A DNA stretch of 64,000 nucleotides, taken from a bacterium (GTDB lineage Bacteria; UBA8248). A program made the translations under genes and the position numbers. This document shows, piece by piece, positions 19,214 to 62,207 of the stretch (positions are counted from its first letter, which is position 1; each line of letters opens with the position of its first letter). The notes under the pieces were generated by a model. That model was not told where the DNA came from. It searched no databases and saw only the letters and a list, made by a program, of their open reading frames with translations. Location of the stretch: contig OZ251456.1 of NCBI GenBank assembly GCA_965242545.1, positions 316,076-380,075 on the forward strand. The letters are read 5' to 3'.

Positions 19214-19216
19214 TTC

Positions 19217-24443: not shown

Positions 24444-24524
24444 GCGCTTCACGGGCGGGATGAACGTCTCCTCGAAAAGAGGCTTTTCCCGATATACCGA
24501 TATGCCTGATTTTGAGCGGAAGGC

Positions 24525-25514: not shown

Positions 25515-25573
25515 GGCTCGCCGGGCGCTGGCGACGCGCTTTGGAAGCGGGTTATGCTTTGACGCGCGGGTGA

Positions 25574-27631: not shown

Positions 27632-27760
27632 TTCCGCGGATTCGGCTCGCTCCTCGTCAAGGCTGAACGGAGGAAGGCTTCAAGCGTTCAGCCCTTCGCC
27701 CGCGTCGCGCTCCAGGGGCGCTTTCACAAGCCGCCGCGTCCTCGGGTAGCAACCCTTTCC

Positions 27761-29248
27761 ATGCCTGAAGAACGAACGTCAAACAACGAACGGACCGCAG
27801 GGGAGAAAGCGTTTTCTCCTTTCCGGCTTACCAATGCGGTCATTTATCTGCACGTGGTTCATTTCCTCATTCCATGGCGAAGCGTCCCTTACTTTCCGAG
27901 TCAGCTGACTCCTTACAGGGTCTTGATGGTCCTTGCCGCCATGCTGTGCGCGGCCTGGGTGATCGAACTCCTGCTGTTCGGGGCGAGGAAGCCGAAGCTG
28001 GCGTTCGGCGTCGCCGTGTTCTGGTTCTGGGTGATATTCTGGGGAGGGGTTCTGAAGGGCTACATGGACGACGACCCCATCAAGACGTATGTACCCCTAT
28101 ACAAGCTCCTGGGCTGGACCGTTCCATACGTGGACGGGATGCTCGTATGGTATTTGATTCGGAACAACGGGTGGGGCATGGCGGAGTTCGAGCGCGCGCT
28201 GAAGTGCGTCTTCTGGGTCTCCCTGGCCATAAGCATCGAGAACGTCCTGGTCTATTATCTGGGCGTTCCCGTTTCTTATTCGATGTTTCACGGGTCCGGG
28301 GTTCGTGTTTTCATGAGCATGTTCGTCCAGACCCACGAAACGGTCTCCAGACTCGGGTTGATATTGACGGGCGTCGGCTTTTATTTCTTTTTGAGAGAGA
28401 AGAGGCATTTTTATTTTTTCGCGTCGCTGTCCGGCGTCCTCATGGTTTTTTCCACCGGGAGCCGAGCGGCGATTCTGGCCCTGTTCGCGGGCGTATTGCT
28501 CGCCATCGTCTTTTTTCTGAAATTCAGAAAACGCGCGGGCGCGAGCGGGAAGCTCGGCTCTCTTTACGCCTTTTGTCTCGCGCCTTTGGCGTTCGCCCTG
28601 TTCGTTTCCGTCGGACTGACGATGGGAGCGGCGTCGAGAGAGCACTTCATCGATCTGACGCAAAGCGTCGTGCTCCGAGCCTATCAATACGCGCGCGCGG
28701 TGGATGTATTTCTGGAGCGGCCTCTTTTGGGGGGCGGGCCTTGGCTGGGCTTCATGTATCTGTATTCGAGGGATACGCCGCCCGTGTTCTCGGAGTATGT
28801 TTTCGGCGATCTCACGCATGACAACGTTGGCGAGCTCACCGGATGGACCGGCTGGGCGCATTACGACTGGCTTCAGGAAAACCCGATGGCGGAGAAATCG
28901 CGGTTGAACTCCCGGGAATTCCAGGAAAGCCACAACATACACCATCTGCATAGTCTGCCGCTCCAGGTTCTCGTTGACCTGGGGCTGTTGGGGCTGGTTT
29001 TGCTGATGATCATGCTCGCCGCCGGCGCGATATATTTTTTCAGGATCATGCTCCTGCGGCGACATGAGAACTCGTTTTCGCGCGCGATGCCCTTCGCCGT
29101 CATTTTCTCCACCGTGGTCGCCGTTTTCATAGGCGTTCTCAGCGTCGCCCTGTTTTATCCGTTCTGGCTTTTCGCCATCCTGCTGTGTTTCACGCGCTGC
29201 CTGTATCGGGAGGCATTGACGGCGTCCGGAGCTTCGGCTTCCGCATGA
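27761..29248 (+). CDS. O-antigen ligase/Wzy-like membrane protein
   Basis: More than 10 TM helices. O-antigen-ligase-domain motif STGSRAAILALFAGVLL and a large periplasmic loop with HNIHHLHSLPLQVLVDLGLLG. Confidence 0.65.
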   Translation: MPEERTSNNERTAGEKAFSPFRLTNAVIYLHVVHFLIPWRSVPYFPSQLTPYRVLMVLAAMLCAAWVIELLLFGARKPKLAFGVAVFWFWVIFWGGVLKGYMDDDPIKTYVPLYKLLGWTVPYVDGMLVWYLIRNNGWGMAEFERALKCVFWVSLAISIENVLVYYLGVPVSYSMFHGSGVRVFMSMFVQTHETVSRLGLILTGVGFYFFLREKRHFYFFASLSGVLMVFSTGSRAAILALFAGVLLAIVFFLKFRKRAGASGKLGSLYAFCLAPLAFALFVSVGLTMGAASREHFIDLTQSVVLRAYQYARAVDVFLERPLLGGGPWLGFMYLYSRDTPPVFSEYVFGDLTHDNVGELTGWTGWAHYDWLQENPMAEKSRLNSREFQESHNIHHLHSLPLQVLVDLGLLGLVLLMIMLAAGAIYFFRIMLLRRHENSFSRAMPFAVIFSTVVAVFIGVLSVALFYPFWLFAILLCFTRCLYREALTASGASASA

Positions 29249-29379
29249 AGACCCGGCGCCCATGCCGTCCGGTTCTGACGAGAGGCGCCGGCCGTCGCCC
29301 TGAACAGGGAGCGACGGCGCCTTGACCGGAGCGCGCGCCCTTGGATCTTTCCGTCCGCGCGCCGAGGGAGAGATCGCAA

Positions 29380-30960
29380 CTATTCTCGGCGAGCGGTTTT
29401 TCGCGCCGTCAGGCAAAAAGCCGTCAGCGCCCAGTAGAGACAGGCGGTTTTGGGAAACGAAAAAATGGTCTCGGTTCCGGCCTGAAGGAGAACGCCGGCG
29501 CAGCCGGCCCACGCCCACGCTTCCGGGGCGCCCGGCGAGAGCCTCCCCTCTCTTCTCAGATGAAGAAGCGCCTCCCATAATCCCCCCATCATCAGGCAGA
29601 GGAAGAGGACGCCCCCCAAAAGTCCCGTTTCGACAAAGGCTTGCAGGTAAGAGGAGTGGGCCGAGAGCGGCGGAAGGCTTCCGTATATCGTCCACGGAGG
29701 ATGGTCTATTCCCCAAGGCTGGAGAAGGGCGCTCTTCGCCCAGGAATCGGGGGAGAGTATGCCGTAGAACTTGGGATCATCCATCCTCCACAGCGGCACT
29801 TTATCCAGTCCGTTGTTTTCCAGCTGATCTTTCTCCGCGTCTCGAGACGCCTCGGGAAAGAGGCCGCTCCCGTAGCCCGCCAAGGGGCGATCGGAGATCA
29901 TTTTCCCGGCGATTCGATAGATATAGACCCTCGGCAGCACCGATGTCTCCACGAATCCGCTGTGGGTGGCGACGGCGGCGCCGGTCGCCAGGATGAAGGA
30001 AGCGCACGCGAAGAGAAGGAGAAGGCGGGCTTTCGCCGGAGAAACATGAGCGGAAATCGTTTTCGTCAATCGCCCCCTGTTGAGGCAGAGGAGCGTCAGA
30101 AGGAAGAGGGCGAGGCTCAGCAGTCCTCCCAGACTCCCGCTCTTCCACAGGACGCCCAGGTGCGCGGCGCCGACGATGAACGCCGCCGGGCGGGAGAAGC
30201 GGAAAATCAAAGGGACCGCGGCGGCCGACAAAAGCAGGCAGGCGGCGAGAAAGTTCGGATTTCCGATGGGCCCGGGCCGGAAATAAAAGAAAAAGCGGGA
30301 TGACAGGGGAAACGGCGAATACAGCAAATCCGCGCGGAAGCTCGAATGCCACCCCCATAGCTTCCATGGAATGTGAAATGCCAGATTCTGGAGGATGACG
30401 GCCGCCATCATGATGAGGCCGCCGCAGAGGACAGCTTTCAGAATCCGCTTGCGGGAGGTTTCCTCCCCGCAAACCTCCAGAAAAACGAGGAAGGTGACGA
30501 AGTAGGCGACGTTTTCGGCGAGGCCCCAGAATTGCTTCGAGAGTGGCGCGCCGCTCAGCCACGCCGCCGCGAGGCTCCAGGCGAGGTAGGCGAGCCAGAG
30601 GTGGAAGGTGATCGGTCTGCTTTTCAGGAGCGGGGCCCTTCCGCCTTTGAGGACGCGCCACCCGAACCCGGCGGCCAGCGCGGCGAGCGCTAGTTTGTCG
30701 TATGAAACGCTCCTCCCGGTCTCGCCGAAGGCGACCTCGACGTTGACGAGCGGGTTCAGAAACAGGAAAAGCGCGCCGCCGGCGGCGAGGCTGTAGAAGC
30801 CCGTCGCGGCGACGGCCGCCGCGCCGATCGCCATGACGCCAATCGCCGCGAATTCAGGGTTCATCGTGAAGGGGCGCCTCGGGGAGCGAGCGGCTGAACG
30901 GAATCCAACGCTTTTGGGTGGACATGAAACAGCATATCGCATAATTTTCAGACTCGGCAA
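29380..30960 (-). CDS. O-antigen ligase/Wzy-like membrane protein (second copy, divergent)
   Basis: Multi-TM protein with HSSYLQAFVETGLLGGVLFL, the Wzy_C/O-antigen-ligase signature. Alternative start at 30864 (MNPEFAAIG). Confidence 0.65.
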   Translation of the reverse strand: MPSLKIMRYAVSCPPKSVGFRSAARSPRRPFTMNPEFAAIGVMAIGAAAVAATGFYSLAAGGALFLFLNPLVNVEVAFGETGRSVSYDKLALAALAAGFGWRVLKGGRAPLLKSRPITFHLWLAYLAWSLAAAWLSGAPLSKQFWGLAENVAYFVTFLVFLEVCGEETSRKRILKAVLCGGLIMMAAVILQNLAFHIPWKLWGWHSSFRADLLYSPFPLSSRFFFYFRPGPIGNPNFLAACLLLSAAAVPLIFRFSRPAAFIVGAAHLGVLWKSGSLGGLLSLALFLLTLLCLNRGRLTKTISAHVSPAKARLLLLFACASFILATGAAVATHSGFVETSVLPRVYIYRIAGKMISDRPLAGYGSGLFPEASRDAEKDQLENNGLDKVPLWRMDDPKFYGILSPDSWAKSALLQPWGIDHPPWTIYGSLPPLSAHSSYLQAFVETGLLGGVLFLCLMMGGLWEALLHLRREGRLSPGAPEAWAWAGCAGVLLQAGTETIFSFPKTACLYWALTAFCLTARKTARRE

Positions 30961-30983
30961 GTTTCATCCACGGAGACCGCCGC

Positions 30984-32432
30984 ATGAGCGACGAGAGAGA
31001 AAGAGGGGGAGCGTGGCCGGGGGGGGGGGCGACTCCGGTGATCACGCGAAGCGCGGGCATCCCGGTAAAAGGGCGCCTCGGGAAACTGGCGTCATCCGCG
31101 CAGGATCGCTCCTTCATACTGCTCGATGTTCTCTCGCTCATCCTCGCGGAGCGGCTGACGCGCTTTTTGTGGGGCGGTCTCGACGGCCTGCTGTTCTTCC
31201 GTCCTGACGTCGTCTGGCTGTCCGCGCTGAGTTTTTGCCTTTTCTGCTTCTGCGACCTCTACGCGTACATTCGCTACGTTCGCGTCTTCCTCTCCTCCTG
31301 GCTGGTGTTCAAGGCTTTGTTCATCAGTTTCATCCTGCGCGAGGCGCTCGACGGCGTTTTCTTCGGGTTTCAGGAGGGCGTCTGGTTCTGGCTTTCGCTC
31401 TACGCCGCGACCTTCGCGGTTGTTATGCTGGCGCGCCTGATTTTCAAGAAAATCGTCCTGAAGGGCGCGCTGGAATGCAAAATCGTGGTTTTGAAGACCG
31501 GGACCGTCAAATCCGACGTCTCCTCCATGTTGTCGGAGGAGAACGACCGGAACCTGGAGATCGCCGGGGAGATTGCGGCGGACGACGACCCCGCCCGGAT
31601 TGCCGGGCGGCTTGGGGAGGCCCTGGATTCCAGCCCCGACGTTCGGTTCGTGGTGTGCGAGCAGGGCTATCTCGATCAGTCGGGCGCCGCCGCGATCCTC
31701 GGCGCGTGCGCGGCGCGTCATGTGTCATGCGTCGCTTGGCCGGGTTTCGTCTCGTTGATGGAGGGACGGATTCCGTTGGAGAGCGTTTCCGAAGCCAGAA
31801 ACTTCTTCGACTCGGATTCCCTATATCGGGTGCCGAGCCGGAGGCAGCGTTTTTGCAAACGGGCGCTCGATCTGGCGTTCAGCATCGCGGCCCTGGTCTT
31901 GTTCGCCCCTTTTGGCCTCCTCATCGCCGTTCTGAGCAAGCTCTCGAGCGAGGGGCCTGTCTTTTATTCCCAGACCCGCGTCACCCAGTTCGGCAGATTG
32001 TTCACCGTCCATAAATTCCGGACGATGAACGTGGATGCGGAACAAGCGGGGAAAGCGGAGTGGAGCAAGGCGAATGATCAGAGAGTCTATCCGTTCGGGC
32101 GCCTGCTCCGCCGCTACCATCTCGATGAGTTCCCGCAGTTCTGGAACGTCGTCAAGGGGGAGATGAGCATTGTCGGCCCCAGACCGGAGAGGCCCGAATT
32201 TTTGAAAGTTTTGCGGGATCGTTATCCGGAATTTCAATACCGCGAACTCGCTCCGGCGGGCATCACGGGCTGGGCGCAAATTCAGCAAGGATACGTCAAC
32301 AGGATTGAAGATTCTAAAACAAAGCTGGAATATGATTTATACTACATTCTGAACTACTCTTTTTATATGGACGTTCAGGTGATATTCCTCACCGCGCTCA
32401 CGTTCTTGCGCCTGCGCGGCCACGGCGTCTAG
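30984..32432 (+). CDS. Polyprenyl-phosphate glycosylphosphotransferase (bacterial sugar transferase, WbaP/EpsB-like priming enzyme)
   Basis: C-terminal catalytic domain KRALDLAFSIAALVLFAPFGLLIAVLSKLSSEGPVFYSQTRVTQFGRLFTVHKFRTM...DEFPQFWNVVKGEMSIVGPRPERPEF. N-terminal TM helices. A G11 tract at 31009-31019 lies within or just before the start (alternative GTG at 31030). Confidence 0.85.
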   Translation: MSDERERGGAWPGGGATPVITRSAGIPVKGRLGKLASSAQDRSFILLDVLSLILAERLTRFLWGGLDGLLFFRPDVVWLSALSFCLFCFCDLYAYIRYVRVFLSSWLVFKALFISFILREALDGVFFGFQEGVWFWLSLYAATFAVVMLARLIFKKIVLKGALECKIVVLKTGTVKSDVSSMLSEENDRNLEIAGEIAADDDPARIAGRLGEALDSSPDVRFVVCEQGYLDQSGAAAILGACAARHVSCVAWPGFVSLMEGRIPLESVSEARNFFDSDSLYRVPSRRQRFCKRALDLAFSIAALVLFAPFGLLIAVLSKLSSEGPVFYSQTRVTQFGRLFTVHKFRTMNVDAEQAGKAEWSKANDQRVYPFGRLLRRYHLDEFPQFWNVVKGEMSIVGPRPERPEFLKVLRDRYPEFQYRELAPAGITGWAQIQQGYVNRIEDSKTKLEYDLYYILNYSFYMDVQVIFLTALTFLRLRGHGV

Positions 32433-39301: not shown

Positions 39302-40117
39302 TTGGAGCTCATCCTTCTGGGCGTGGGCGCGCCGCCCCCGACCCCCGAGAAAAGCGGTCCGTGCAACGGCGTCGTCAAGGGCGGGAAGCTCTACCTGGTT
39401 GACGCCGCCCGGCACGCCGCGACCCAGATCGTGAAGGCGGGCTTTCGCGTCGCCGGCGTGGACCACTTGTTTTTCACGCATTTTCACTCTGACCACTATA
39501 CGGGATTCGGCGACTTCTTCCTCTCCCGGTGGATCATGGGCGCCGGGACGCCTTTGAAGGTCTATGGCCCGTCGCCGGTTCACGAGATAGTCCGGCGGAT
39601 GCTTCATTATTACGAATACGACATCAATCTCCGGGTGGATGAGGGAAAGCCCGGGGAGGGCGCCGAAGTCGAGGCGGCCGCGCTCGCGCCCGGTGATTCG
39701 ATCGAGGTGGACGGCATCGAGGTTCGCGCGGAGAAGGGCACGCGCCACGGCAACGTGGACGACATCCTCTCCTATTCCTTTGCGGCGGAGGGAAGAAAAA
39801 TCGTCATGGCGAGCGATGGAAGCCCCACGGAAAAGCTGGCGTCCCTCGCCCGGGGCGCGGACGTTCTGGTGATGCACCCCTGCGTCCCGGAGTTGATAGG
39901 CGAGCGTTTCGGCGGATTCAGGGGCACGGCGAAGCTGGTGGCGGCCCATCACGCCACGGCGGAGGAGGTCGGGAGAACGGCCGCTCGCGCCGGCGCGGGC
40001 AAGCTCGTTTTCTCCCACGTGGTTCCCCCCCTGGCGCCGAACGAAAGGGTGAGGGAGGCGATAGTCCCTTATTTCGACGGCCCCGTCATCGCCGGCGAGG
40101 ATTTGATGCGGCTTTGA
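39302..40117 (+). CDS. MBL-fold metallo-hydrolase (RNase Z/Lactamase_B_2-like)
   Basis: FFTHFHSDHYTG motif. 271 aa. Confidence 0.7.
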   Translation: MELILLGVGAPPPTPEKSGPCNGVVKGGKLYLVDAARHAATQIVKAGFRVAGVDHLFFTHFHSDHYTGFGDFFLSRWIMGAGTPLKVYGPSPVHEIVRRMLHYYEYDINLRVDEGKPGEGAEVEAAALAPGDSIEVDGIEVRAEKGTRHGNVDDILSYSFAAEGRKIVMASDGSPTEKLASLARGADVLVMHPCVPELIGERFGGFRGTAKLVAAHHATAEEVGRTAARAGAGKLVFSHVVPPLAPNERVREAIVPYFDGPVIAGEDLMRL

Positions 40118-40257
40118 GCCCGCACGCGCTTTCCGGATTTCGCCTTGATGCAATCCGGGCGCGCCTGTGGCATACTCCCCGCATTCCATACAGGGCGGCG
40201 GCGCGCCATTTCGGCTTCGGGAGGTTCGTCTTTTCATTTCTTGGAGGAGGAAACGAG

Positions 40258-41268
40258 ATGAGAAAGTTGTTTGGGCTTCTGAGTCTGCTCCTCGTTTTAA
40301 GCCTCACGCCGGTCGATTCCTTCGTCCGCGACGCGCGGGCGGCCAAGTTCCGCATCGGGATGCACCGCCAGACGTTCGGAGCCTTCACCGCGGTCGCCAT
40401 GGGGATGGGTTATTTCGACGAGGAATTCGGAAAGGGCAACTGGTCGGTGAAGGTTTTCCCGCAGGGCAAACTCGTCATCGAGGCGCTGCTCTCCCGCAGC
40501 CTCGACGTGGGACACGGCGCCACGCGGCCTTTCGTGGACGGCGTGGCCAAAAAGGCGGGCCTGACGATGATTTCCGTCAGTTCCTCCTGGTGCAAATCCA
40601 TCTCCATCTGGGTGCCGCTGGACTCCCCCGTCAAGACGGTGGCCGACCTCAGGGGAAAGACCATCGCCGAGAAAAAAGGCACGTCCACGCACTTCGTCCT
40701 GGACAACGGCATTCTGCCCGCGTTCGGCATGAAGCCGGGCGACATCAAGATCATGAACACCACGACGGCGGAGCGCCTCTCCGCCTACAGGGCGAAGGTG
40801 GTTTCCGCCATGGTGATCGGCGCGCCCACGTCGTTCCGCCTCACGGACAAGAAATGGGGGCGGCCCATCGTTGATTACTGCAAATACGACAATCCGCCGG
40901 CCATGATCTTCATCGAGCTCGCCAATCCCAGAACGCTGAAAAGCAACCCGGAAGGCGTGGTGAAATATCTGCGCGCCTATCTGAAATCCGCGCAGCTTTG
41001 GAAAAAGGACCCCGACAAGTTCGCCAGGGTCTATCACAAATGGCTCATCTCGAAGGGGCGCAAGGTGGATTATTCCATCGCCAGGCGCGCCATCAACGTG
41101 GTGCGGCCGCTGTACAAAATCACCCCCCGCATCATCAACGCGCTCAACGCGACGGCCAAGGTGCAAAAGGGCCGGGGCAAGATTCGCCGCTTGCCTGATT
41201 TCGCGGGCGGTGAAGGCATCAATGACGGCCCGATCAAAAAGGCGCTGGCCAGCATGAACATGAACTGA
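40258..41268 (+). CDS. ABC-type substrate-binding protein (NMT1/SsuA/TauA-like) with signal peptide
   Basis: Signal peptide MRKLFGLLSLLLVLSL, periplasmic-binding-protein type 2 layout. No cognate permease or ATPase adjacent. Confidence 0.6.
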   Translation: MRKLFGLLSLLLVLSLTPVDSFVRDARAAKFRIGMHRQTFGAFTAVAMGMGYFDEEFGKGNWSVKVFPQGKLVIEALLSRSLDVGHGATRPFVDGVAKKAGLTMISVSSSWCKSISIWVPLDSPVKTVADLRGKTIAEKKGTSTHFVLDNGILPAFGMKPGDIKIMNTTTAERLSAYRAKVVSAMVIGAPTSFRLTDKKWGRPIVDYCKYDNPPAMIFIELANPRTLKSNPEGVVKYLRAYLKSAQLWKKDPDKFARVYHKWLISKGRKVDYSIARRAINVVRPLYKITPRIINALNATAKVQKGRGKIRRLPDFAGGEGINDGPIKKALASMNMN

Positions 41269-41342
41269 GGCTTTTTGGGCCCGGCATTCGAGGCTGCGGA
41301 GGCGTTTTTCTGAGCTTCCGCAGCCTTTGCCGCGTTTCGGGC

Positions 41343-42452
41343 GTGAGAGCGGATGGAATGTGCCGGATGGCCGGTTTGAAAATAGCGAAGATAGAAGCGA
41401 AGTCCATCAGGACGCCCTTGTCCCGCCCCATAGGGAGCGCGAGCGGGGCGAAATCGGAACTGGATTATCTGCTGGTTTTTCTCCACACCGAGAACGGCCC
41501 GACCGGTTGCGGCTTCGTGATGAGTCTGGGCGAAGCGGCCTCGACCGCCCTCGTTCCCTACGTTGAAAAGGAACTGGCGCCTCTGGCGAAGGGGCGGGAC
41601 GCGCTCGCGCCCGAGGCGCTTTGGCGGCGTCTTTGGGGGCCGAACAAGGCGAGAATGCGCGGCGGGCTGGGCGTTCAGGCGCTCTCCGCGGTGGACACCG
41701 CCTGTTGGGACGCGCTCGCGAAGGCGGCGGACATGCCGCTTTCCCGCGTCCTGGGCGGGTTCGGAAGCGAGGTTCCCGTCTATGGCAGCGGAGGGTGGCT
41801 CACGTTCACGGACGCCGAGATGGTGGAGGAATGCCGGGGCTTCGCGGAGAAGGGAATCGGCGCCTACAAACTGAAACTGGGGACGGAGCGGGACGAGGAG
41901 CGAATCCGCGTTTTGAGAAGGGAGATGGGAGAGGAAATCGTTTTGTTCGCGGACGCGAACCAGAAATACAACGCGCGCGAAGCCCTGGAGGCGGCCGCGA
42001 TGCTCGCCGAATACGACGTGAAATGGTTCGAGGAGCCGGTGTTGGCGGATTCCGTGGACGACCTCGCAGAGGTGGCGCGAAGGAGTCCGACGCCCGTCGC
42101 GGCGGGGGAAAACGCTTATATGCGCTGGGGTTTTCGGGAGATTTGCGAAAGAAGGGCGGCTTCGTTTCTGCAGCCCGACGTGGGCCGCTGCGGCGGCGTG
42201 ACGGAATTTCGCAAGGCGGCTCATCTGGCGGAAGCCTGGAGCCTTCCGCTGTGCAGCCATTTGCTCCAGGAGGTTTCGGTCGGCCTCATCGCCTCGACGC
42301 CGAGCGGCTACATGGTGGAGTATATGGAACTTCTTCCCCCGGATGTCCTGACGCGGGATTTTCCCGTCGCGAACGGCCGCATGAAGGTTCCCGACGCGCC
42401 CGGCCACGGTGTGGAATTCACCGAGCGCGCCATCCGAAAATACGCGGTTTGA
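41343..42452 (+). CDS. Enolase-superfamily enzyme (mandelate racemase/muconate lactonising enzyme family)
   Basis: KLKLG...FADANQ...WFEEP...GENA metal-ligand and barrel pattern. The start may be 41367 (MAGLKIAKIE). Confidence 0.8.
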   Translation: MRADGMCRMAGLKIAKIEAKSIRTPLSRPIGSASGAKSELDYLLVFLHTENGPTGCGFVMSLGEAASTALVPYVEKELAPLAKGRDALAPEALWRRLWGPNKARMRGGLGVQALSAVDTACWDALAKAADMPLSRVLGGFGSEVPVYGSGGWLTFTDAEMVEECRGFAEKGIGAYKLKLGTERDEERIRVLRREMGEEIVLFADANQKYNAREALEAAAMLAEYDVKWFEEPVLADSVDDLAEVARRSPTPVAAGENAYMRWGFREICERRAASFLQPDVGRCGGVTEFRKAAHLAEAWSLPLCSHLLQEVSVGLIASTPSGYMVEYMELLPPDVLTRDFPVANGRMKVPDAPGHGVEFTERAIRKYAV

Positions 42453-42464
42453 GGAGGATCGGAT

Positions 42465-43349
42465 TTGGCTGAAAAAGTCGCGTTTCTGGGCCTGGGAAAC
42501 ATGGGCGGCGCCCTTGCGGCCAATCTGGTGAAGGCCGGCTTCGAGGTGTCGGGCTTCGATCCGAGCCCGCCCGCCCGGGAGGCGACGGAAAAAGCGGGCG
42601 TCCCCGTTTTCGATTCTCCCGCCGAGGCGGCCAAGGGCGCGGATTACGTTTGCAGCGCGGTGCCCACGGGCGCGCAGGCGCGCGACGCCTATCTGGGCGA
42701 AAAGGGCGCGCTCCTCGCCGCCGGGGAGGGCGCCGTCTGCTTCGACTTTTCGACCATCCTGCCCGAGGAGAGCATCTCCATCGCGGAGGAAGCCGAGTCC
42801 CGCGGTTTTCACTTTCTGGATACCCCCGTCAGCGGGAACGCGCTCATCGCGCGCGACGCGAAAATCGGCCTCATGGTGGGCGGGAAAAAGGAGGTTCTGG
42901 ACGCGCACCGGGCGGTGCTGGAGAGCGTGTGCGAACTGCTCGATTATTTCGGCCCCAATGGTTCGGGCTTGAGAATGAAGTTGATCGCGAATCAGTTGGT
43001 GTCGTGCCAGCTGTGCGCTCTGGCGGAGGGATTCACCCTTGGGGTGAAGTCGGGCCTCGACCCGGATCAAATGATGGAATATCTCTACTCGAGCACGGTG
43101 TTTCGCGTGATGAGCGCGCGCGGCTGGGGCTTGAGAAAAAAGGAGTATGAACCCGTGAAGTTCGCCCTCGCCCTCATGCGCAAGGACCTGGGCCTCATCA
43201 GGGAGTTCGCCCGGTCGAACGGCGTCCCCCTGCCGCTGACCGACGCGGTTCAAAAGGCGTATCAGGGAGCGATGGACATGGGGCTCGGCGATTTGGACCA
43301 GGGCGTCATACGCGAATGGTTCGAGCGCGAAGCAGGGCTCGGCGGCTAG
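42465..43349 (+). CDS. NAD(P)-dependent oxidoreductase (3-hydroxyisobutyrate dehydrogenase/6-phosphogluconate dehydrogenase-like)
   Basis: VAFLGLGNMGGALAANL Rossmann motif and the HIBADH-family layout. Confidence 0.8.
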   Translation: MAEKVAFLGLGNMGGALAANLVKAGFEVSGFDPSPPAREATEKAGVPVFDSPAEAAKGADYVCSAVPTGAQARDAYLGEKGALLAAGEGAVCFDFSTILPEESISIAEEAESRGFHFLDTPVSGNALIARDAKIGLMVGGKKEVLDAHRAVLESVCELLDYFGPNGSGLRMKLIANQLVSCQLCALAEGFTLGVKSGLDPDQMMEYLYSSTVFRVMSARGWGLRKKEYEPVKFALALMRKDLGLIREFARSNGVPLPLTDAVQKAYQGAMDMGLGDLDQGVIREWFEREAGLGG

Positions 43350-45776: not shown

Positions 45777-46475
45777 TTATCCGGAAAGCTGGAGCTGGCG
45801 CGGCGCTTGATCGTTGGTAGAACAATACGGAACAATCCATCCCCGGGATGTGAGTCTATTTATTTCGATCTTCGTTATATCAATGGTACAGGATGCGGAT
45901 TTTGGTTCTTCTTTCCCCAAAAGATACGCCTTAAATGTGAATGTGAGCTTGTCAGTTTTACTGAGCACATCCAAGGCTTCTTTCTTAAATAAATGATTAC
46001 AGCCTGGTTGTTTGAAACACGGTTTCGGGTAAAAATAGATCTCCCTACTCAATGAATTGCCAGCTTTGATTGGCCTTGGTGCCGCTGCCGCAATGAACTT
46101 ATTGTTAAGATTACCGTCCTCCGCTGGGTCGGAAAATTGCCATTCTGAGTGCCAAACCTGAATATATTCCTTTCCATCAAGTGTGAACGACACATACTCA
46201 TGGTGCACCACCGCATTGTAGTCTCGGGTACCCGTATTAACGTATGCCATGCGCGCACCGATTCGCAAAAAACGGCGATCATCGTTATTCGGATCATTCC
46301 GGTCCTTCTCGAACTTTAGCAAAACTTGCTCTGGCGGAAAAAAAGAGATTGAGGCTCCTTTTATGTAAAATATAACGTTAATGATGGCATTGACGAAGGA
46401 GATTAGTAACGCCAGACCAGCTATGAAATTGGTTATGGTCATCCCCCGTGCCATTTGAGTTTTAGAATCGTTCAT
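45777..46475 (-). CDS. Hypothetical membrane-anchored protein (232 aa) in low-GC islet
   Basis: N-terminal TM (ITNFIAGLALLISFVNAIINVIFYI), then a soluble domain with 4 Cys. Local GC is about 42%. Confidence 0.45.
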   Translation of the reverse strand: MNDSKTQMARGMTITNFIAGLALLISFVNAIINVIFYIKGASISFFPPEQVLLKFEKDRNDPNNDDRRFLRIGARMAYVNTGTRDYNAVVHHEYVSFTLDGKEYIQVWHSEWQFSDPAEDGNLNNKFIAAAAPRPIKAGNSLSREIYFYPKPCFKQPGCNHLFKKEALDVLSKTDKLTFTFKAYLLGKEEPKSASCTIDITKIEINRLTSRGWIVPYCSTNDQAPRQLQLSG

Positions 46476-46494
46476 GATGAAGCTTTACGGAGTA

Positions 46495-46731
46495 CTACGC
46501 CATGTTTCGAGGAGGCGGTGGCGGAGGTGGTGGCGATGGCGGTGGCGGATCCGGTGCCGGCATAAATGTCGAAGAAAGAGCGAAAGAGGGGAAGGATAGT
46601 TGTTCAATCGTAGGAAGCAAGAAGCTGATGGACACGATGGAAGCCAAAAGGAGCATTTTCATGTCGAAGAATCCTCCCGTCAACCAATCAGCGGCAAATT
46701 TTAATATATGATTTTTGATCTTCTTTGTCAA
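46495..46731 (-). CDS. Small hypothetical membrane protein with Pro-rich tail (78 aa)
   Basis: Central hydrophobic helix, C-terminal PAPDPPPPSPPPPPPPP encoded by a GGN/CCN repeat. An antisense Gly-rich ORF (46502..46711 +) exists, so the coding strand is uncertain. Confidence 0.3.
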   Translation of the reverse strand: MTKKIKNHILKFAADWLTGGFFDMKMLLLASIVSISFLLPTIEQLSFPSFALSSTFMPAPDPPPPSPPPPPPPPRNMA

Positions 46732-46747: not shown

Positions 46748-47377
46748 TCACTCCCCCGCCTCGGGGAACTCCTCCGGCCAGTCGGCCAGCAGCGCCTCCA
46801 GATACGCCTTGAGGTCGTCCGGCCTTTTCCGGCGAATCCTGTTCCGATCGATTTCCTCCTGCGCTTCGATGGGAATCCCCAGCGCGTCGTTGAATTTGTT
46901 TCTCATGTTGAAATAGGTGACGACCATGGTGAGCTCCACGATTTCCGCGTCGCTGAAATGCTTCCTGACCCCGGCGAAAACGTCGTCCCTCTCCCCGGCC
47001 GTGCCCAGCGTCACGTGCTCCGCCCAGAGGAGGACGGCGCGCTCTTTCTCCGTGAAGGAGGCGTAGTCGCCCTCGCCGATGGCCGCGATCCGCTCTTCCG
47101 TAATGCCCACCGATTGACCAACCGGCGCGTTGTGCGCCAGTCAGTAGGCGCAGTCGTTGAGCTGGCTGGTCTTGATGATGGCCAGCTCCTTGGTCTTCGT
47201 GCTCAGCGCCGAGCCCAGCCCCTGGCGCAGGAGCGACGAGGTGAGCGGCAGCATGAATTTCGCGATGAAGGGCTGGTTCGCCATCACCCGCCAGGCGTTG
47301 GGGACGCGGTTCAGGAGAACGCTCGCGTGGTCGAACAGATGGTTCACGACGGGGTCATCGGATCCGGATTCGAGCAT
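46748..47377 (-). CDS. Carboxymuconolactone decarboxylase (AhpD-like) family protein with in-frame TGA at the CxxC position, a candidate selenoprotein
   Basis: ORFs 47141..47731 and 46748..47110 are in the same frame, separated only by TGA 47141-47143. The read-through protein is ...KTSQLNDCAY-U-LAHNAPVGQS-VGITEERIAAIGEGDYASF..., i.e. the AhpD/CMD redox motif with the second Cys replaced by the TGA codon. The likely start is ATG 47375-47377 (MLESGSDD). A GC hairpin (CUGGCGC-ACAAC-GCGCCGG) follows the TGA directly. Confidence 0.6.
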
Positions 47378-58620: not shown

Positions 58621-59589
58621 TCAGGCGAGAACTTCCGGGTTGTGGATGTTGATCGGCCTGCCCGCGGCGAAGGCGTTGATCTGGTCGAAGGCGATCCCGA
58701 AGTATTTCTCGAAAGTGCCCCTCGTCACATATCCCAGGTGGGGCGTGCAGATCGCGTTCTCCATGGCCAGAAGCGGATGCGCGGCCCCTTGAACCGGCTC
58801 TTTCTCATAGACGTCCACTGCGGCGAAGCCGGGCCTTCCCGTTTTGAGCGCCGCCTCGAGCGCGCCTTCTTCTATCAGCCCGGCGCGGCTGGTGTTCACG
58901 AGAAGGGCGTCCGGCTTCATGCGGCTCAAATCCTGCGCCGTCACAATGCCCTTCGTCTGCGGCGTGAGGCGAATATGGAGGCTGAGGACGTCGGATGTCC
59001 CGAAAAGCGCTTCCCGGCTGGGCGCCACCGGCAGGCCGTCCCTCCGGGCGCGTTCGGCGGAGCCCTCTCTCCCGTAGGCGATGACGCTCATGCCGAACGC
59101 CTTGCCCACGGCGGCCACCTGGCTGCCGATTTTGCCGTAGGCGTAGACGCCGAGCGTTTTCCCGCAGAGGTCTTCTCCCAGCGTTGTTTGCCAGCCGCCC
59201 TCGGCCAGATTGCGTATTTCTTTGGGGATGGAGCGCATGGCGCAGAGGATGAGCCCCCACGCGAGCTCGCATGTCGAGCGCGTGCCCGCGCCTCCCGCGG
59301 CTACGGCCACGCGGCGGCGCGTGCAGGCTTCCAGATCGATGTGCGCGGCGAAGCCGGCGCCGGTCTGGCTCACCAATTTGAGACTGGGGAGTCTGGCGAG
59401 CAATTCGGCCGTGATGCGGGTGCGCTCCCTGATCAGCACGATGGCCTCCGCTTCCCGGAACCGCGCTTCAAGCGCGTCGAGGTCGTCCACCGTGTCATGG
59501 TGAATGGTGACGTCGTGTTCCGCCATCCTGGAGAAGCACTCGAGGCGGCGGACGCAGTCCTGATAATCGTCCGAAATCACGACTTTCAT
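58621..59589 (-). CDS. D-isomer-specific 2-hydroxyacid dehydrogenase
   Basis: NAD-binding GVYAYGKIGSQVA, and NTSRAGLIEEGAL. Start at ATG 59587-59589 (MKVVISDDY). Confidence 0.8.
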   Translation of the reverse strand: MKVVISDDYQDCVRRLECFSRMAEHDVTIHHDTVDDLDALEARFREAEAIVLIRERTRITAELLARLPSLKLVSQTGAGFAAHIDLEACTRRRVAVAAGGAGTRSTCELAWGLILCAMRSIPKEIRNLAEGGWQTTLGEDLCGKTLGVYAYGKIGSQVAAVGKAFGMSVIAYGREGSAERARRDGLPVAPSREALFGTSDVLSLHIRLTPQTKGIVTAQDLSRMKPDALLVNTSRAGLIEEGALEAALKTGRPGFAAVDVYEKEPVQGAAHPLLAMENAICTPHLGYVTRGTFEKYFGIAFDQINAFAAGRPINIHNPEVLA

Positions 59590-59712
59590 GCAGGCGTCCT
59601 TTCCGGGTGGAACGCGCGGAAAAGAAATGTTTTGTCCTATACCGTGGAGATGTATTATCATCCCTTCTGCCGGGGGTTTTTACAAGCCTCATCATTATTT
59701 TCGGGAGCGGGC

Positions 59713-60810
59713 ATGGCAACGGCATCGGAGAGAAAGGAGCGCCTCACCCGGATGGTCAGGGCGGGGGGCTGAGGCTCGAAACTGGGTCCGGAGGACCTGA
59801 GAGAGGCGTTGAGCGGGTTCGAGCCGTTTTCCGATCCGAATCTTCTTTACGGGACGAACGCCGGAGACGACACGGGCGTTTATCGGCTCAGAGAGGATTT
59901 GGCCATCGTTCAGACGGTGGACTTCTTCACGCCCATCGTGGACGACGCCTACGCCTACGGCCAGATAGCCGCGGCCAACGCGCTGAGCGATTGCTTCACC
60001 ATGGGCGCGCAGCCGGTCACGGGGCTGAACCTGGCGTGTTTCCCCTGCCGTCTTGGACTGGATGCGCTGGGGAGAATTCTGGCCGGCGGCGCGGACAAGA
60101 TGCGCGAGGCGGGCGGCGTCATCGTGGGCGGCCACAGCGTGGATGACGCGGAGCCCAAATACGGCATCGCCGTCACCGGAACGGTCGACCCCAGGGAGAT
60201 GGTGACGAACCGGGGAGCGAGACCCGGCGACAAACTCGTTTTGACGAAAAAAATCGGCACCGGCGTCGTCACCAACGTGACGAAGCAGCTGAACCCGATG
60301 CTGAGGGCCGCGCGCGGCATCTTCGGGAAAAACGGAAAACTCCGAGACGGCGTGTTCGAGGAGGCGGTCGCCTCGATGAAGGCGCTCAACAAGCGGGCGA
60401 GCGAGTGCATGATGCGCGTGGGCGTGAACGCCTGCACGGATGTGACGGGCTTCGGCCTTCTTGGGCATTTGCGCAACGTGATGGAAGCCAGCGGCGCGCG
60501 GGCGCGCGTCGTTTTCTCCGACGTTCCTCAGTTCGAGGGACTTCTTCCGCACGCCATCGCCGGCACGGCGGGCGGAGGAGAGCGCAACCGCGCGTGGACC
60601 AAGTCGTTCGTCGAGCCGAAGCCGGGCGTGGACGAGGAAATGCTCGCTTTGCTCAACGACGCGCAAACCTCCGGGGGGCTCATCATTGCGGTCGAAACGG
60701 AAAAGGCGGAATATCTTTTGAGAGAACTGCTTGGAGCGGGCGTCGCCGCCGGGGCCGTGTTCGGCGAGGTGGTGGAGGGCCCGCCCGGCAGCGTGGAGAT
60801 AGAGCCGTAA
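59713..60810 (+). CDS. selD: Selenide, water dikinase (selenophosphate synthetase), selenocysteine-containing form with in-frame TGA
   Basis: The track ORF starts at a TTG at 59809, but reading upstream in frame gives MATASERKERLTRMVRAGG-TGA-GSKLGPEDLREALSGFEPFSDPNLLYG..., which matches the SelD N-terminal active-site loop (LTQ..HGAG[C/U]G.K). The TGA is at 59770-59772, a GGGAG RBS precedes ATG 59713, and a hairpin (GGGUCC-GGA-GGACCU) starts about 12 nt after the TGA. The rest of the protein is full-length SelD (DFFTPIVDD, VTDVTGFGLLGH). Confidence 0.8.
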
Positions 60811-60836
60811 TTCTGGTTTCCAGCAAGGGAGCGATC

Positions 60837-61304
60837 ATGGAAAAGGCCATGTTCGGCGCGGGCTGTTTTTGGGGCGTGGAGGAGGCGTTTCGCCGAGTGG
60901 AAGGCGTGACGCGCACCGCGGTGGGGTATTCGGGCGGTGAAAAAGAGGAGCCTTCCTACAGGGAAGTGTGCTCGGGCCGCACGGGGCACGCGGAGGTCGT
61001 CTATCTGGAGTTTGAACCGGAGAAGGTGACTTATCGGGAGCTGCTGGATCTGTTCTGGCGGATTCACGATCCGTGCACGCTGAACCGGCAGGGTCCCGAC
61101 GTCGGCACCCAGTATCGCTCGGCGATTTATTTCTTCTCGCCCGAACAGGAGTCCGCGGCGCGGACATCCAGAGCGGAGGAAGAGGCGTCGGGCCGCCATC
61201 GCGGGCCGATAGTGACGGAGATTACGCCCGCGTCGAGATTCTGGATGGGCGAGGATTACCATCAGCAATATCTCGAAAAACGCGGAATCGCTCACTGCCA
61301 CTAG
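60837..61304 (+). CDS. msrA: Peptide methionine sulfoxide reductase MsrA (Cys form)
   Basis: MEKAMFGAGCFWGVE active-site motif. 155 aa. Confidence 0.9.
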   Translation: MEKAMFGAGCFWGVEEAFRRVEGVTRTAVGYSGGEKEEPSYREVCSGRTGHAEVVYLEFEPEKVTYRELLDLFWRIHDPCTLNRQGPDVGTQYRSAIYFFSPEQESAARTSRAEEEASGRHRGPIVTEITPASRFWMGEDYHQQYLEKRGIAHCH

Positions 61305-61321
61305 CGGGGTTCGGACGACAA

Positions 61322-61358
61322 AGACCCCCGACGGGCTCGCAGCTCGCCGGGAGTCTTT
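61322..61358 (+). terminator. Possible terminator after msrA
   Basis: GC-rich imperfect stem (CCCGACGGGCTCGCAGCTCGCCGGG) followed by TCTTTTT. Convergent with the LLM gene on the other strand. Confidence 0.3.
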
Positions 61359-61367
61359 TTCCGCGTC

Positions 61368-62207
61368 TCAGCCGAATTTCGCCACGAGGTCGGCCAGTTC
61401 GTCAAGTTTCGGCAGAACGACGCCGGCCTCCGCGGAAGGCAGGACGAAGAGGCTTCTCGTCACCCCTTTGCTCTCGAGATCGCGCAGCTTCACGGGATCC
61501 GGAGGAGCGAAGAACATGGTGACGGGAATGGGCGCGCGTCCCGCCTTGGCCGCCAGTTCCTGAAGCTCCTGGATGCGCGGGGTCCAATCCACGTCCCCCC
61601 GGGGGAGGGGCATCCACTCGTCCCCGTAGCGAACCACGCGATCGAGCGTCCTTTCTCCGTTTCCGCCCACCAGTATGGGCGGGTGCGGCTTTTGCGTCGG
61701 CTTGGGCCAGGACCAGATGCGATCGAAGTCCACGAAATTTCCATGATAGCTCGCCTCATCCTCCGCCCAGATGGCTTTCATGGCCTCAATGCGCTCACGC
61801 AGGATAATCCAGCGCTTGGAGAAGCTTGTTCCATGGTTTTCCATCTCTTCGCGGTTCCAGCCGCCGCCGACGCCGAAAAGCGCGCGGCCGTCCGATAGGT
61901 GATCGAGCGTGGCCACCTCATTGGCCAGAGTGATGGGGTCGCGCTCGATCACGAGGCATATTCCCGTGCCCAGCATGATTTTTTCCGTCGCCGCGGCTGC
62001 CGCCCCGAGCGCCACGAAAAGATCGAGCGAGTGCGAGTATTCCAAGGGCAGGTCCGCGCCGCCGGGCCAAGGGGTTTTTCTGCTCGCCGGAATATGGGTG
62101 TGCTCCGGGAAGAATATGGATTCAAAGCCTCTGTCCTCGGCTTCTTTGGCGATCCGGTGCGGGCCGATGGAATAGTCGGTCGGGAAAATCGCAACGCCGA
62201 ATTTCAT
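61368..62207 (-). CDS. LLM-class (luciferase-like) flavin/F420-dependent oxidoreductase
   Basis: MKFGVAIFPTD...IFFPEHTH TIM-barrel LLM signature. 279 aa. Confidence 0.75.
   Translation of the reverse strand: MKFGVAIFPTDYSIGPHRIAKEAEDRGFESIFFPEHTHIPASRKTPWPGGADLPLEYSHSLDLFVALGAAAAATEKIMLGTGICLVIERDPITLANEVATLDHLSDGRALFGVGGGWNREEMENHGTSFSKRWIILRERIEAMKAIWAEDEASYHGNFVDFDRIWSWPKPTQKPHPPILVGGNGERTLDRVVRYGDEWMPLPRGDVDWTPRIQELQELAAKAGRAPIPVTMFFAPPDPVKLRDLESKGVTRSLFVLPSAEAGVVLPKLDELADLVAKFG

What the first reader, a model, noticed from the sequence alone, without database searches (positions are those of the whole stretch)
59713..60810. selD is a selenoprotein here: N-terminus missed by ORF calling because of an in-frame UGA
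The track ORF starts with a TTG at 59809, but the in-frame upstream sequence from ATG 59713 encodes MATASERKERLTRMVRAGG-[TGA]-GSKLGPEDL.... This is the SelD active-site loop, with UGA at 59770-59772 where Cys or Sec sits. Sec-containing SelD is established in several anaerobic lineages. The true gene is therefore 59713..60810, with a Sec codon and a hairpin (GGGUCCGGAGGACCU, about 59784-59798) roughly 12 nt downstream. This anchors the selenium-utilisation trait for the whole window.
Basis: partly seen in the sequence, partly recalled or inferred. Interest (0 to 1): 0.6.

Follow-up and report, generated by a model that had tools for sequence, protein, structure and literature searches.

The report
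Selenocysteine-containing selD gene, mis-called short
The gene for selenophosphate synthetase (SelD) really runs from 59713 to 60810 and has an in-frame UGA read as selenocysteine with the help of a small RNA hairpin; this is correct, but it is a well-known and common kind of gene that ORF callers routinely truncate.

Summary
There is an ATG at 59713, an in-frame TGA at 59770-59772, a hairpin GGGUCC-GGA-GGACCU at 59784-59798 and a stop at 60808-60810.

- Read through the TGA, the 365-aa product is a full-length SelD (TIGR00476, 336.7 bits against a cutoff of 125).
- The UGA sits on the catalytic Cys17 of E. coli SelD, with the catalytic Lys three residues later.
- All 79 related genomic loci carry TGA at this column, with a conserved peptide upstream. 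More distant homologs have Cys there.
- TGA ends 24 of 43 family-supported genes in the window, so the genetic code is not reassigned.
- The hairpin fits the published bacterial SECIS model and starts 11 nt after the UGA.
- Its codons are the most synonymously conserved 5-codon stretch of the gene (rank 1 of 309).
- Four Cys-type genes encoding the same peptide use other codons; three form no hairpin and one only a weak, different one.

selA, selB and tRNA-Sec are not in the window. A second selenoprotein gene is: an AhpD-like CxxU protein at 46748-47377 on the minus strand.

Sec-SelD is the second most widespread prokaryotic selenoprotein family, and this lineage (GTDB UBA8248) is already catalogued as selenoprotein-rich. 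The finding is an annotation correction, not a discovery.

The parts
59703..59707 (+). Shine-Dalgarno-like GGGAG, 5 nt before the start codon
   Evidence: Read directly from the sequence; not tested further.
59713..60810 (+). Complete selD coding sequence (365 residues, Sec at residue 20, TAA stop)
   Evidence: Translation. TIGR00476 selD scores 336.7 bits against a cutoff of 125, covering profile positions 1-310 of 311. PDB SelD chains match with E = 1e-65 to 6e-56. The start Met is conserved in relatives, and some have in-frame stops just upstream of it.
59770..59772 (+). In-frame UGA read as selenocysteine (Sec20), equivalent to E. coli Cys17
   Evidence: Aligns with Cys of the GAGCGCK loop in 3u0o and with the active-site position in 2yye. 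TGA is present in 79/79 related loci. More distant homologs have Cys, encoded by TGC in the four genes read at DNA level.
59779..59781 (+). Codon for Lys23, equivalent to the catalytic Lys20 of E. coli SelD
   Evidence: Alignment. Invariant Lys in all 31 distinct close sequences. The catalytic role of the Lys is established knowledge of E. coli SelD and was not tested here.
59773..59783 (+). 11-nt spacer between the UGA and the base of the hairpin
   Evidence: Counted from the sequence. It matches the 11-nt spacing required for the E. coli minimal SECIS (PMC11431864).
59784..59798 (+). SECIS apical hairpin: 5' arm 59784-59789 (GGGUCC), loop 59790-59792 (GGA), 3' arm 59793-59798 (GGACCU)
   Evidence: Predicted in the 46-nt fold. 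Energy is -7.4 kcal/mol for the bare 15-mer and -8.2 with 2-nt flanks. Invariant in 28 of 29 distinct sequences; L024 keeps 5 bp with an AGC loop. Codons 24-28 have zero synonymous diversity, rank 1 of 309 windows. Of four Cys-type genes encoding GPEDL, three form no hairpin and L080 forms only a weak, different one.
59773..59825 (+). Possible lower SECIS helix, 59773-59780 pairing with 59818-59825 (weakly supported)
   Evidence: Part of the MFE fold of 59767-59830. Across 29 sequences 92.7% of cells are paired and 3 pairs change on both sides, but one pair is unpaired in 10 of 29 sequences. Inconclusive.
60837..61304 (+). msrA (Cys-type, GCFWG motif), 26 nt downstream of selD; probably co-transcribed
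   Evidence: PF01625 PMSR, E = 1.9e-62. The order hydroxyacid dehydrogenase(-) / selD / msrA / luciferase-like monooxygenase(-) is kept in 21 close loci. Co-transcription is inferred from the spacing only.

Best explanation
Window 59713-60810 (+) encodes a full-length selenophosphate synthetase (SelD) whose catalytic N-terminal loop residue is selenocysteine, encoded by UGA at 59770-59772.

Proposed mechanism:
1. Translation starts at ATG 59713.
2. [quoted passage not shown]
3. SelB delivers Sec to the A site instead of release factor 2, and the ribosome continues to the TAA at 60808.
4. The product has the loop RAGG-U-GSK, which corresponds to E. coli HGAG-C17-GCK20. It makes selenophosphate from selenide and ATP for SelA, and so for its own synthesis (a positive feedback loop).

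Shown here: the reading frame, the SelD identity, the placement of the UGA on the catalytic Cys, conservation of the UGA and its flanks, and nucleotide-level constraint on the hairpin.

Inferred from established knowledge of bacterial Sec decoding: SelB binding, actual Sec insertion, enzyme activity and the feedback loop.
For: - SelD identity of the extended protein, aligned from its first ten residues: TIGR00476 at 336.7 bits (cutoff 125) over profile positions 1-310 of 311; PDB SelD of A. aeolicus and E. coli.
- The UGA aligns with E. coli Cys17, and a Lys follows at +3.
- TGA is at the same column in 79/79 related loci from two lineages, with conserved peptide upstream (LTRMVKAGG in one, LTxLAxCAG in the other).
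- Full-length homologs at 52-59% identity have Cys there (GGCGSK). TGC was confirmed at DNA level in four of them.
- All the closest database proteins are 333-aa truncations, so the same interruption is present throughout the clade.
- TGA is the ordinary stop of 24 of 43 Pfam-supported genes in the window, so the code is not reassigned.
- The hairpin fits the bSECIS model of PMC13188914: 3-nt loop starting with GG, 6-bp stem, 17 nt between UGA and loop, and MFE of -8.2 to -15.5 kcal/mol in context.
- The 11-nt gap to the hairpin base matches the E. coli minimal SECIS (PMC11431864).
- Codons 24-28 (LGPED, 59782-59796) have zero synonymous diversity among 24 relatives, rank 1 of 309 windows. The mean heterozygosity is 0.28, and only 39 of 353 degenerate codons are invariant.
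- Cys-type genes encoding the same GPEDL use GGC and GAT/GAA; three form no hairpin and one only a weak, different one.
- BSepDB shows an almost identical hairpin (GGGUCCGGCGGACCU) as the canonical SECIS of Acetomicrobium mobile Sec-SelD. It also lists UBA8248 MAGs with 48-54 selenoprotein genes, including FO_M_Nitrospinota_01, which is my locus L019 at 77% identity (PMC13326102).
- A second gene in the window has a conserved CxxU UGA and a canonical GGUC-loop SECIS.
Against: - selA, selB and tRNA-Sec are absent from the window. No tRNA-Sec gene lies within 3 kb of selD in 60 related loci. The decoding machinery of this genome was therefore not seen.
- The hairpin stem shows no compensatory change, only invariance, so there is no covariation proof.
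- The single-sequence fold is not better than shuffles (z = -1.0 and -1.56).
- The bare 15-mer folds at -7.4 kcal/mol, just short of the -7.5 threshold of the published model.
- No Rfam family matches the region.
- There is no experimental evidence of Se incorporation.
Confidence: 0.93

Rival explanations
1. The gene is a truncated SelD or a pseudogene. The UGA terminates a 19-residue peptide, and a 333-aa protein lacking the catalytic loop is made from TTG 59809, or nothing functional is made.
For: This is what a conventional ORF caller reports. All the closest database entries are annotated this way, as 333-aa proteins.
Against: - The 19 codons upstream of the UGA and the 12 between the UGA and TTG 59809 are conserved as protein in 79 loci down to 45% identity.
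- They align with the catalytic loop of solved SelD structures.
- TTG 59809 is an internal Leu codon in the conserved motif EALSxFEPF.
- A protein without the Sec/Cys and Lys loop would lack the residues known to be essential in E. coli SelD (established knowledge).
- A pseudogene would not keep the same single TGA in 79 independent genomes.
Confidence: 0.02
2. The UGA is decoded as a standard amino acid, either by a reassigned genetic code (UGA = Trp or Gly) or by generic near-cognate read-through, not as Sec.
For: One homolog of the other UGA-containing gene in the window is deposited with Trp at the site (P0155, CAYW). Some pipeline therefore translated such a contig with a UGA = Trp code.
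Against: - TGA ends 24 of 43 family-supported genes in this window.
- The two internal TGAs found both sit exactly on catalytic or redox Cys positions.
- Each is followed, at canonical distance, by a conserved hairpin whose loop begins with G.
- The lineage is catalogued with about 50 selenoproteins per genome (PMC13326102).
Confidence: 0.03
3. The TGA is a sequencing or assembly error for TGC/TGT (Cys).
For: One base separates TGA from TGC or TGT, and Cys-type SelD homologs exist.
Against: TGA occurs at this codon in 79 of 79 independently assembled loci, including long-read chromosome-level MAGs. The hairpin-forming synonymous codons are specific to the TGA-containing genes.
Confidence: 0.01

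Closest known systems
Selenocysteine-containing SelD (selenophosphate synthetase) of bacteria, e.g. Aquifex aeolicus SelD (PDB 2yye/2zod) and the Sec-SelD entries of BSepDB
   Same: - Same family: TIGR00476 above cutoff, and the best PDB match is the A. aeolicus enzyme (E = 1.2e-65).
- Same position of Sec in the N-terminal Gly-rich loop, followed by Lys at +3.
- Same recoding logic: a UGA followed by an intragenic SECIS.
[quoted passage not shown]
   Different: Nothing of kind. The loop is GG-U-GSK rather than the SG-U-AAK form seen in the BSepDB example and in my Dehalococcoidia loci. Identity to the solved structures is moderate.
E. coli SelD (PDB 3u0o), the Cys-type enzyme
   Same: It aligns over residues 5-358 (E = 5.9e-56). 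The conserved motifs DDxxVY, DFFxPIVDD, NAxSD and TDVTGFGLLGH are all present.
   Different: E. coli has Cys17 in GAGCGCK where the window has UGA. The E. coli gene needs no SECIS.
SECIS of Acetomicrobium mobile (Synergistota) SelD as shown in BSepDB (PMC13326102)
   Same: Almost the same hairpin on the same codons. A. mobile has UUGGGUCCGGCGGACCUC encoding LGPADL; the window has CUGGGUCCGGAGGACCUG encoding LGPEDL. Both have a 3-nt loop beginning GG at the same distance from the UGA.
   Different: One loop nucleotide differs (GGC against GGA, Ala against Glu codon), and so does the flanking lower stem. The two organisms belong to different phyla.
E. coli fdhF minimal SECIS (17-nt upper stem-loop, 11 nt from the UGA; PMC11431864)
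   Same: An 11-nt spacer between the UGA and the base of the apical hairpin, a short G+C-rich stem, and G at the start of the loop.
   Different: The window hairpin is 15 nt, has a 3-nt GGA loop and has no bulged U. The fdhF element has a GGUC-containing loop (minimal sequence in PMC10945757) and a bulged U (own knowledge). The AhpD-like gene in the same window does carry a GGUC loop.
Selenoprotein-rich UBA8248 ('Nitrospinota'-labelled) MAGs in BSepDB (PMC13326102)
   Same: The closest loci (74-90% identity) are MAGs labelled Nitrospinota, Nitrospinae or Tectomicrobia. One of them, FO_M_Nitrospinota_01 (L019), is listed with 54 selenoprotein genes (PMC13326102).
   Different: The window's exact protein is not on record in the collection searched, so this particular genome may be unlisted.

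Membership tests
SelD / selenophosphate synthetase (NCBIfam TIGR00476; PurM-like AIRS superfamily) | Full-length match to the equivalog profile above its curated cutoff | tested here: met
   336.7 bits against a cutoff of 125, covering profile positions 1-310 of 311 and protein residues 10-331. ThiL and other AIRS relatives score far below their own cutoffs.
SelD / selenophosphate synthetase (NCBIfam TIGR00476; PurM-like AIRS superfamily) | AIRS N-terminal and C-terminal domains (PF00586 + PF02769) | tested here: met
   All 120 listed homologs carry PF00586 + PF02769 in the precomputed annotation, including P0001 at 96% identity. Pfam was not run on the window protein itself.
SelD / selenophosphate synthetase (NCBIfam TIGR00476; PurM-like AIRS superfamily) | N-terminal Gly-rich loop with catalytic Sec/Cys and a Lys three residues later (E. 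coli Cys17, Lys20) | tested here: met
   RAGG-U-GSK aligns with HGAG-C-GCK of 3u0o and SSG-C-AAK of 2yye. This holds only if the UGA is read through.
SelD / selenophosphate synthetase (NCBIfam TIGR00476; PurM-like AIRS superfamily) | Enzyme activity: selenide + ATP gives selenophosphate + AMP + Pi | not testable with these tools
   Needs a biochemical assay.
Bacterial selenoprotein gene (SelB/SECIS-dependent UGA recoding) | In-frame UGA aligned with Cys in homologs (Sec/Cys pair) | tested here: met
   Homologs P0040-P0084 have GGCGSK. TGC was confirmed in four genes at DNA level. E. coli Cys17 aligns with the UGA.
Bacterial selenoprotein gene (SelB/SECIS-dependent UGA recoding) | Protein-level conservation on both sides of the UGA, and conservation of the UGA itself among orthologs | tested here: met
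   79/79 loci have TGA, and the flanks are conserved.
Bacterial selenoprotein gene (SelB/SECIS-dependent UGA recoding) | bSECIS consensus: apical loop of 3-9 nt, upper stem of 4-16 bp, G in the first two loop positions, 16-37 nt between UGA and loop, MFE <= -7.5 kcal/mol (PMC13188914) | tested here: met
   Loop GGA (3 nt), 6-bp stem, 17 nt spacing. MFE is -8.2 kcal/mol with 2-nt flanks and -15.5 for UGA plus 43 nt; the bare 15-mer is -7.4, which is borderline. Synonymous-site invariance supports function.
Bacterial selenoprotein gene (SelB/SECIS-dependent UGA recoding) | selA, selB and tRNA-Sec (selC) in the same genome | not testable with these tools
   None is in the 64-kb window (ARAGORN; Rfam; Pfam on about 50 ORFs). 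The rest of the genome is not available, and the source contig is not on record. Indirect support only: related UBA8248 MAGs are in BSepDB, which admits only species with at least two Sec-pathway genes (PMC13326102).
Bacterial selenoprotein gene (SelB/SECIS-dependent UGA recoding) | Physical incorporation of selenium at the UGA position | not testable with these tools
   Needs 75Se labelling or mass spectrometry.
E. coli fdhF-type SECIS | Apical hairpin placed 11 nt after the UGA | tested here: met
   59773-59783 is 11 nt; the requirement is cited in PMC11431864.
E. coli fdhF-type SECIS | GU in the loop and a bulged U in the upper stem as SelB contacts (own knowledge of the E. coli element) | tested here: not met
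   The loop is GGA and the stem is perfectly paired without a bulge. The element works like a SECIS and fits the general bacterial model, but it is not of the fdhF sequence type.

The most novel reading that the evidence does not exclude
The 18-nt block CUGGGUCCGGAGGACCUG is invariant in 28 of 29 distinct UBA8248-type selD sequences (down to 55% protein identity). An almost identical block is catalogued in a Synergistota SelD. It could therefore define a SelD-specific SECIS class that is kept across phyla, either because it moves with selD by horizontal transfer or because it does something more than recruit SelB. One such extra role would be selenium-dependent autoregulation of selD translation together with the possible long-range lower helix 59773-59780/59818-59825.
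Probability: 0.12. Interest if true: 0.3.

Novelty: already known. Interest (0 to 1): 0.15.

Why it matters
The practical value is in annotation. The 333-aa ORF call is wrong: the true product is 365 aa with Sec at residue 20. The same truncation affects essentially every close homolog in the public protein collections.

The corrected gene, together with the AhpD-like CxxU gene 12 kb upstream, marks this organism as a Sec decoder. Other in-frame TGAs in its genome should therefore be examined before genes are called truncated or broken. Related MAGs of the same lineage are reported to carry about 50 selenoprotein genes each.

Nothing here changes what is understood about selenocysteine biology.

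Tried and rejected
- Rfam: nothing but tRNA-Glu at gathering thresholds over the whole window. A permissive search of 59700-59900 gave only chance-level hits with E of 0.8 or more.
- Single-sequence folding significance: z = -1.0 and -1.56, not informative.
- Long-range lower stem 59773-59780 with 59818-59825: 92.7% of cells paired and three pairs changed on both sides, but one pair is unpaired in 10 of 29 sequences. The variable sites are third codon positions that tolerate G-U. Left as inconclusive.
- Alternative lower stem 59774-59779 with 59809-59814, from the 46-nt MFE fold: no covariation above shuffles, rejected.
- tRNA-Sec: none in the window, and none in the 3-kb flanks of 60 related loci.
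- selA and selB: no match among about 50 window ORFs scanned against Pfam.
- Look-up of the window's own 333-aa ORF to find the source contig: not on record.
- Scan of all in-frame TGAs for further selenoprotein candidates. TGA 42450-42452 looked like a 668-aa read-through ORF, but it is the ordinary stop of a 369-aa ORF (41343-42452) followed by a separate 294-aa ORF (42465-43349); both went unscanned against any family library. The TGA junctions at 56358 and 56802 are ordinary stops between adjacent MaoC-like and CoA-transferase genes. The remaining hits lie antisense to genes with family matches.
- My first crude gene call for 41070-43253 (-), 727 aa with no Pfam hit, is probably a shadow ORF of the plus-strand ORFs there.

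Full report
**Observation**

The longest conventional ORF in this frame starts at TTG 59809 and ends at 60810, giving 333 aa. Translating from ATG 59713 gives MATASERKERLTRMVRAGG*GSKLGPEDLREAL... The only internal stop is a TGA at 59770-59772, and the terminal TAA is at 60808-60810. A GGGAG motif lies 5 nt before the ATG. The hairpin GGGUCC-GGA-GGACCU occupies exactly 59784-59798, and 11 nt separate it from the UGA.

**What the protein is**

With the UGA position filled by Cys for the search, the 365-aa protein matches the SelD equivalog TIGR00476 at 336.7 bits (cutoff 125). The match covers profile positions 1-310 of 311 and begins at residue 10. It also matches the solved SelD structures of Aquifex aeolicus (2yye/2zod, E = 1.2e-65) and E. 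coli (3u0o, E = 5.9e-56). These alignments begin at residues 5-10, well upstream of the TTG.

In the E. coli alignment the UGA falls on the Cys of GAGCGCK (Cys17), and Lys23 of the window protein falls on Lys20.

**Is the UGA real and conserved?**

A scan of one genome per species returned 79 loci encoding relatives. Thirty are 55-90% identical and come from MAGs labelled Nitrospinota, Nitrospinae, Tectomicrobia or just 'bacterium'. The other 49 are 45-52% identical and are almost all Dehalococcoidia or Chloroflexota.

Every one of the 79 has TGA at the aligned codon. The peptide upstream of it is conserved: LTRMVKAGG in the first group and LTxLAxCAG in the second. The start Met is conserved in the close group, and several loci have an in-frame stop three or four codons upstream of it, which fixes the start at 59713.

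In the protein database the closest 30 or so homologs are nearly all N-terminally truncated (mostly 297-334 aa), so they share the interruption. Full-length homologs at 52-59% identity read KAGG-C-GSK. Four of them were confirmed at DNA level to have TGC. This Sec/Cys pair is the classical criterion for a selenoprotein.

**Rivals: pseudogene, error or altered code**

- A pseudogene or an assembly error would not reproduce one TGA in 79 independent assemblies, with purifying selection on both sides.
- A reassigned code is excluded because TGA terminates 24 of the 43 window genes that have a Pfam match.

**The SECIS element**

On the single sequence the fold is unremarkable (z = -1.0 and -1.56). 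The argument is therefore comparative.

- Among 29 distinct sequences of the close group, the block CTGGGTCCGGAGGACCT is identical in 28. The neighbouring synonymous sites vary freely: GGC/GGT/GGG, TCG/TCA/TCC/TCT and AAA/AAG before it, and CGA/AGA/CGG/CGC after it.
- Over the whole gene in 24 gap-free relatives, mean synonymous heterozygosity is 0.28, and only 39 of 353 degenerate codons are invariant.
- The five codons LGPED (59782-59796) sum to 0.0. That is the lowest of all 309 five-codon windows.
- The one variant, L024, keeps a 5-bp GGUCC/GGACC stem with an AGC loop.
- As a control, four Cys-type genes encoding the same GPEDL peptide use GGC for Gly and GAT for Asp or GAA for Glu. Three form no hairpin and one forms only a weak, different one.

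The hairpin-forming codon choice therefore goes with the UGA.

The published bacterial SECIS model requires a 3-9 nt apical loop, a 4-16 bp upper stem, a G in the first two loop positions, 16-37 nt between UGA and loop, and MFE of -7.5 kcal/mol or lower (PMC13188914). The window element has a GGA loop, a 6-bp stem and 17 nt spacing. Its energy is -8.2 kcal/mol with 2-nt flanks and -15.5 kcal/mol for the first 46 nt. The bare 15-mer is -7.4, which is borderline. The 11-nt gap to the hairpin base equals the spacing required of the E. coli minimal SECIS (PMC11431864).

BSepDB prints the canonical SECIS of the Sec-SelD of Acetomicrobium mobile as ...UUGGGUCCGGCGGACCUC.... This is the same hairpin on the same codons with one loop base changed (PMC13326102).

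A longer lower helix (59773-59780 with 59818-59825) appears in the 64-nt MFE fold. It is 92.7% paired across relatives and three pairs change on both sides, but one pair is unpaired in a third of the sequences. I leave it as possible. A different lower helix from the 46-nt fold has no support.

**Mechanism**

The best-supported reading is ordinary bacterial Sec decoding:
1. SelB with GTP and Sec-tRNA(Sec) binds the apical hairpin.
2. It delivers Sec at the UGA in competition with release factor 2.
3. Translation continues to 60810.
4. The product carries Sec in the flexible N-terminal loop and makes selenophosphate, on which its own synthesis depends.

The frame, the family, the catalytic position, the conservation and the RNA constraint are shown here. 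SelB binding, selenium insertion and enzyme activity are inferred from established knowledge of the pathway.

**The rest of the trait**

The window has no tRNA-Sec; tRNA-Glu at 13797-13874 is the only tRNA. None of about 50 ORFs scanned against Pfam is SelA or SelB. No tRNA-Sec lies within 3 kb of selD in 60 related loci either. The machinery therefore cannot be checked with the sequence at hand.

Two things speak for its presence.

First, the window holds a second gene with the same signature, at 47377..46748 on the minus strand:
- It is a CMD/AhpD-like protein (PF02627, E = 4.5e-12) with an in-frame TGA at 47143-47141 in the motif NDCAY-U-LAHN.
- Full-length homologs have CAYC, and close homologs are deposited as 120-122-aa C-terminal fragments.
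- The TGA is conserved in three fetched loci, including one at only about 54% identity.
- A hairpin CGCCGGUU-GGUC-AAUCGGUG places a GGUC loop 21 nt after the UGA. In the distant locus the loop and its position are kept while the stem sequence differs and still pairs.
- AhpD-like CxxU proteins are a known and abundant selenoprotein family (PMC2398784).

Second, the literature: BSepDB lists MAGs of GTDB phylum UBA8248 with 48-54 selenoprotein genes, among the ten richest bacterial selenoproteomes. One of them is FO_M_Nitrospinota_01, which is my locus L019 (PMC13326102).

**Context**

selD is flanked by a divergently transcribed D-2-hydroxyacid dehydrogenase gene (58621-59661, minus strand) and followed after 26 nt by a Cys-type msrA (60837-61304). 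The order dehydrogenase(-) / selD / msrA / luciferase-like monooxygenase(-) is kept in 21 close loci. A sigma-70-like match lies at 59632-59661. It was not examined further.

**Comparison with what is known, and novelty**

Sec-containing SelD is textbook. [quoted passage not shown] It is one of the two most widespread selenoproteins in ocean metagenomes (PMC2398784). It is explicitly noted as frequently misannotated in public databases because of the UGA (PMC13326102). Sec-SelD has been described for many bacteria, the hairpin type has been catalogued for a Synergistota SelD, and the UBA8248 lineage is already catalogued as selenoprotein-rich. The gene passes every membership test that could be run. 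The untestable ones are the trans-acting machinery and the chemistry.

I rate the finding as already known and of low interest. Its value is to correct the gene model and to warn that other in-frame TGAs in this genome may be Sec codons.

The most novel reading not excluded is that the invariant SelD hairpin is a cross-phylum, SelD-specific SECIS class with an additional regulatory role. I give that about 12%.

Noticed in passing
window 46748-47377 (-); TGA at 47141-47143; hairpin 47108-47127: A second selenoprotein gene, encoding an AhpD-like/CMD-family protein (PF02627) with motif NDCAY-U-LAHN (CxxU). The ORF caller reports only the 120-aa C-terminal part (46748-47110). Cys homologs have CAYC. 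The TGA is conserved in three related loci. A hairpin CGCCGGUU-GGUC-AAUCGGUG puts a GGUC loop 21 nt after the UGA, and a distant locus keeps the loop with a different stem that still pairs.
   Followed up: yes
loci L030-L079 (mostly Dehalococcoidia/Chloroflexota selD), first 50 nt after the TGA: The same Sec codon is served by different hairpins in that lineage. One type is GGACCUGG-GNN-CCAGGUCC, starting about 19-22 nt after the UGA. The other is CUGGCGCAG-GUN-CUGCGYCAG, starting about 24 nt after it. Both have three-base loops beginning with G. The SECIS has therefore been remodelled while the Sec codon stayed.
   Followed up: partly
protein P0155 (homolog of the AhpD-like gene): It is deposited with Trp at the Sec position (NGCAYWYAHN). 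That contig was probably translated with a UGA = Trp code, so the TGA is hidden in the protein record.
   Followed up: no
window 58621-62207 and loci L001-L018, L027, L029, L032: The gene order 2-hydroxyacid dehydrogenase(-) / selD(+) / msrA(+) / luciferase-like monooxygenase(-) is conserved in 21 close relatives. selD and the Cys-type msrA are about 26-30 nt apart and may form an operon linking selenium activation with methionine-sulfoxide repair.
   Followed up: partly
window 13797-32432: A tRNA-Glu (13797-13874) is followed by about 18 kb of lower G+C (0.55-0.60 against 0.63-0.67 elsewhere). The stretch encodes polysaccharide functions: cytidylyltransferase, epimerase, glycosyltransferases, Wzz, two O-antigen-ligase-like proteins and a sugar transferase. 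It may be an island inserted next to the tRNA.
   Followed up: no
window 6914-8317 (-) and 45777-46731 (-): ORFs with much lower third-position G+C than the rest of the window (0.47-0.52 against about 0.8). One has a GmrSD restriction-endonuclease N-terminal domain. They look like recently acquired DNA.
   Followed up: no
window 41070-43253 (-) versus 40114-43349 (+): A 727-aa minus-strand ORF with no family match is probably a shadow of three plus-strand ORFs: 40114-41268, 41343-42452 and 42465-43349. From their sequences I read these as a substrate-binding protein, an enolase-superfamily enzyme and a 3-hydroxyisobutyrate-dehydrogenase-like protein, but none was scanned against a family library. 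The TGA at 42450-42452 is an ordinary stop between two same-frame ORFs, not a Sec codon.
   Followed up: partly
loci L002 and L029 (MAG CBDCMA01, contig_4 and contig_2): The same MAG carries two selD loci with identical sequence around the Sec codon. This is either a recent duplication or an assembly duplicate.
   Followed up: no
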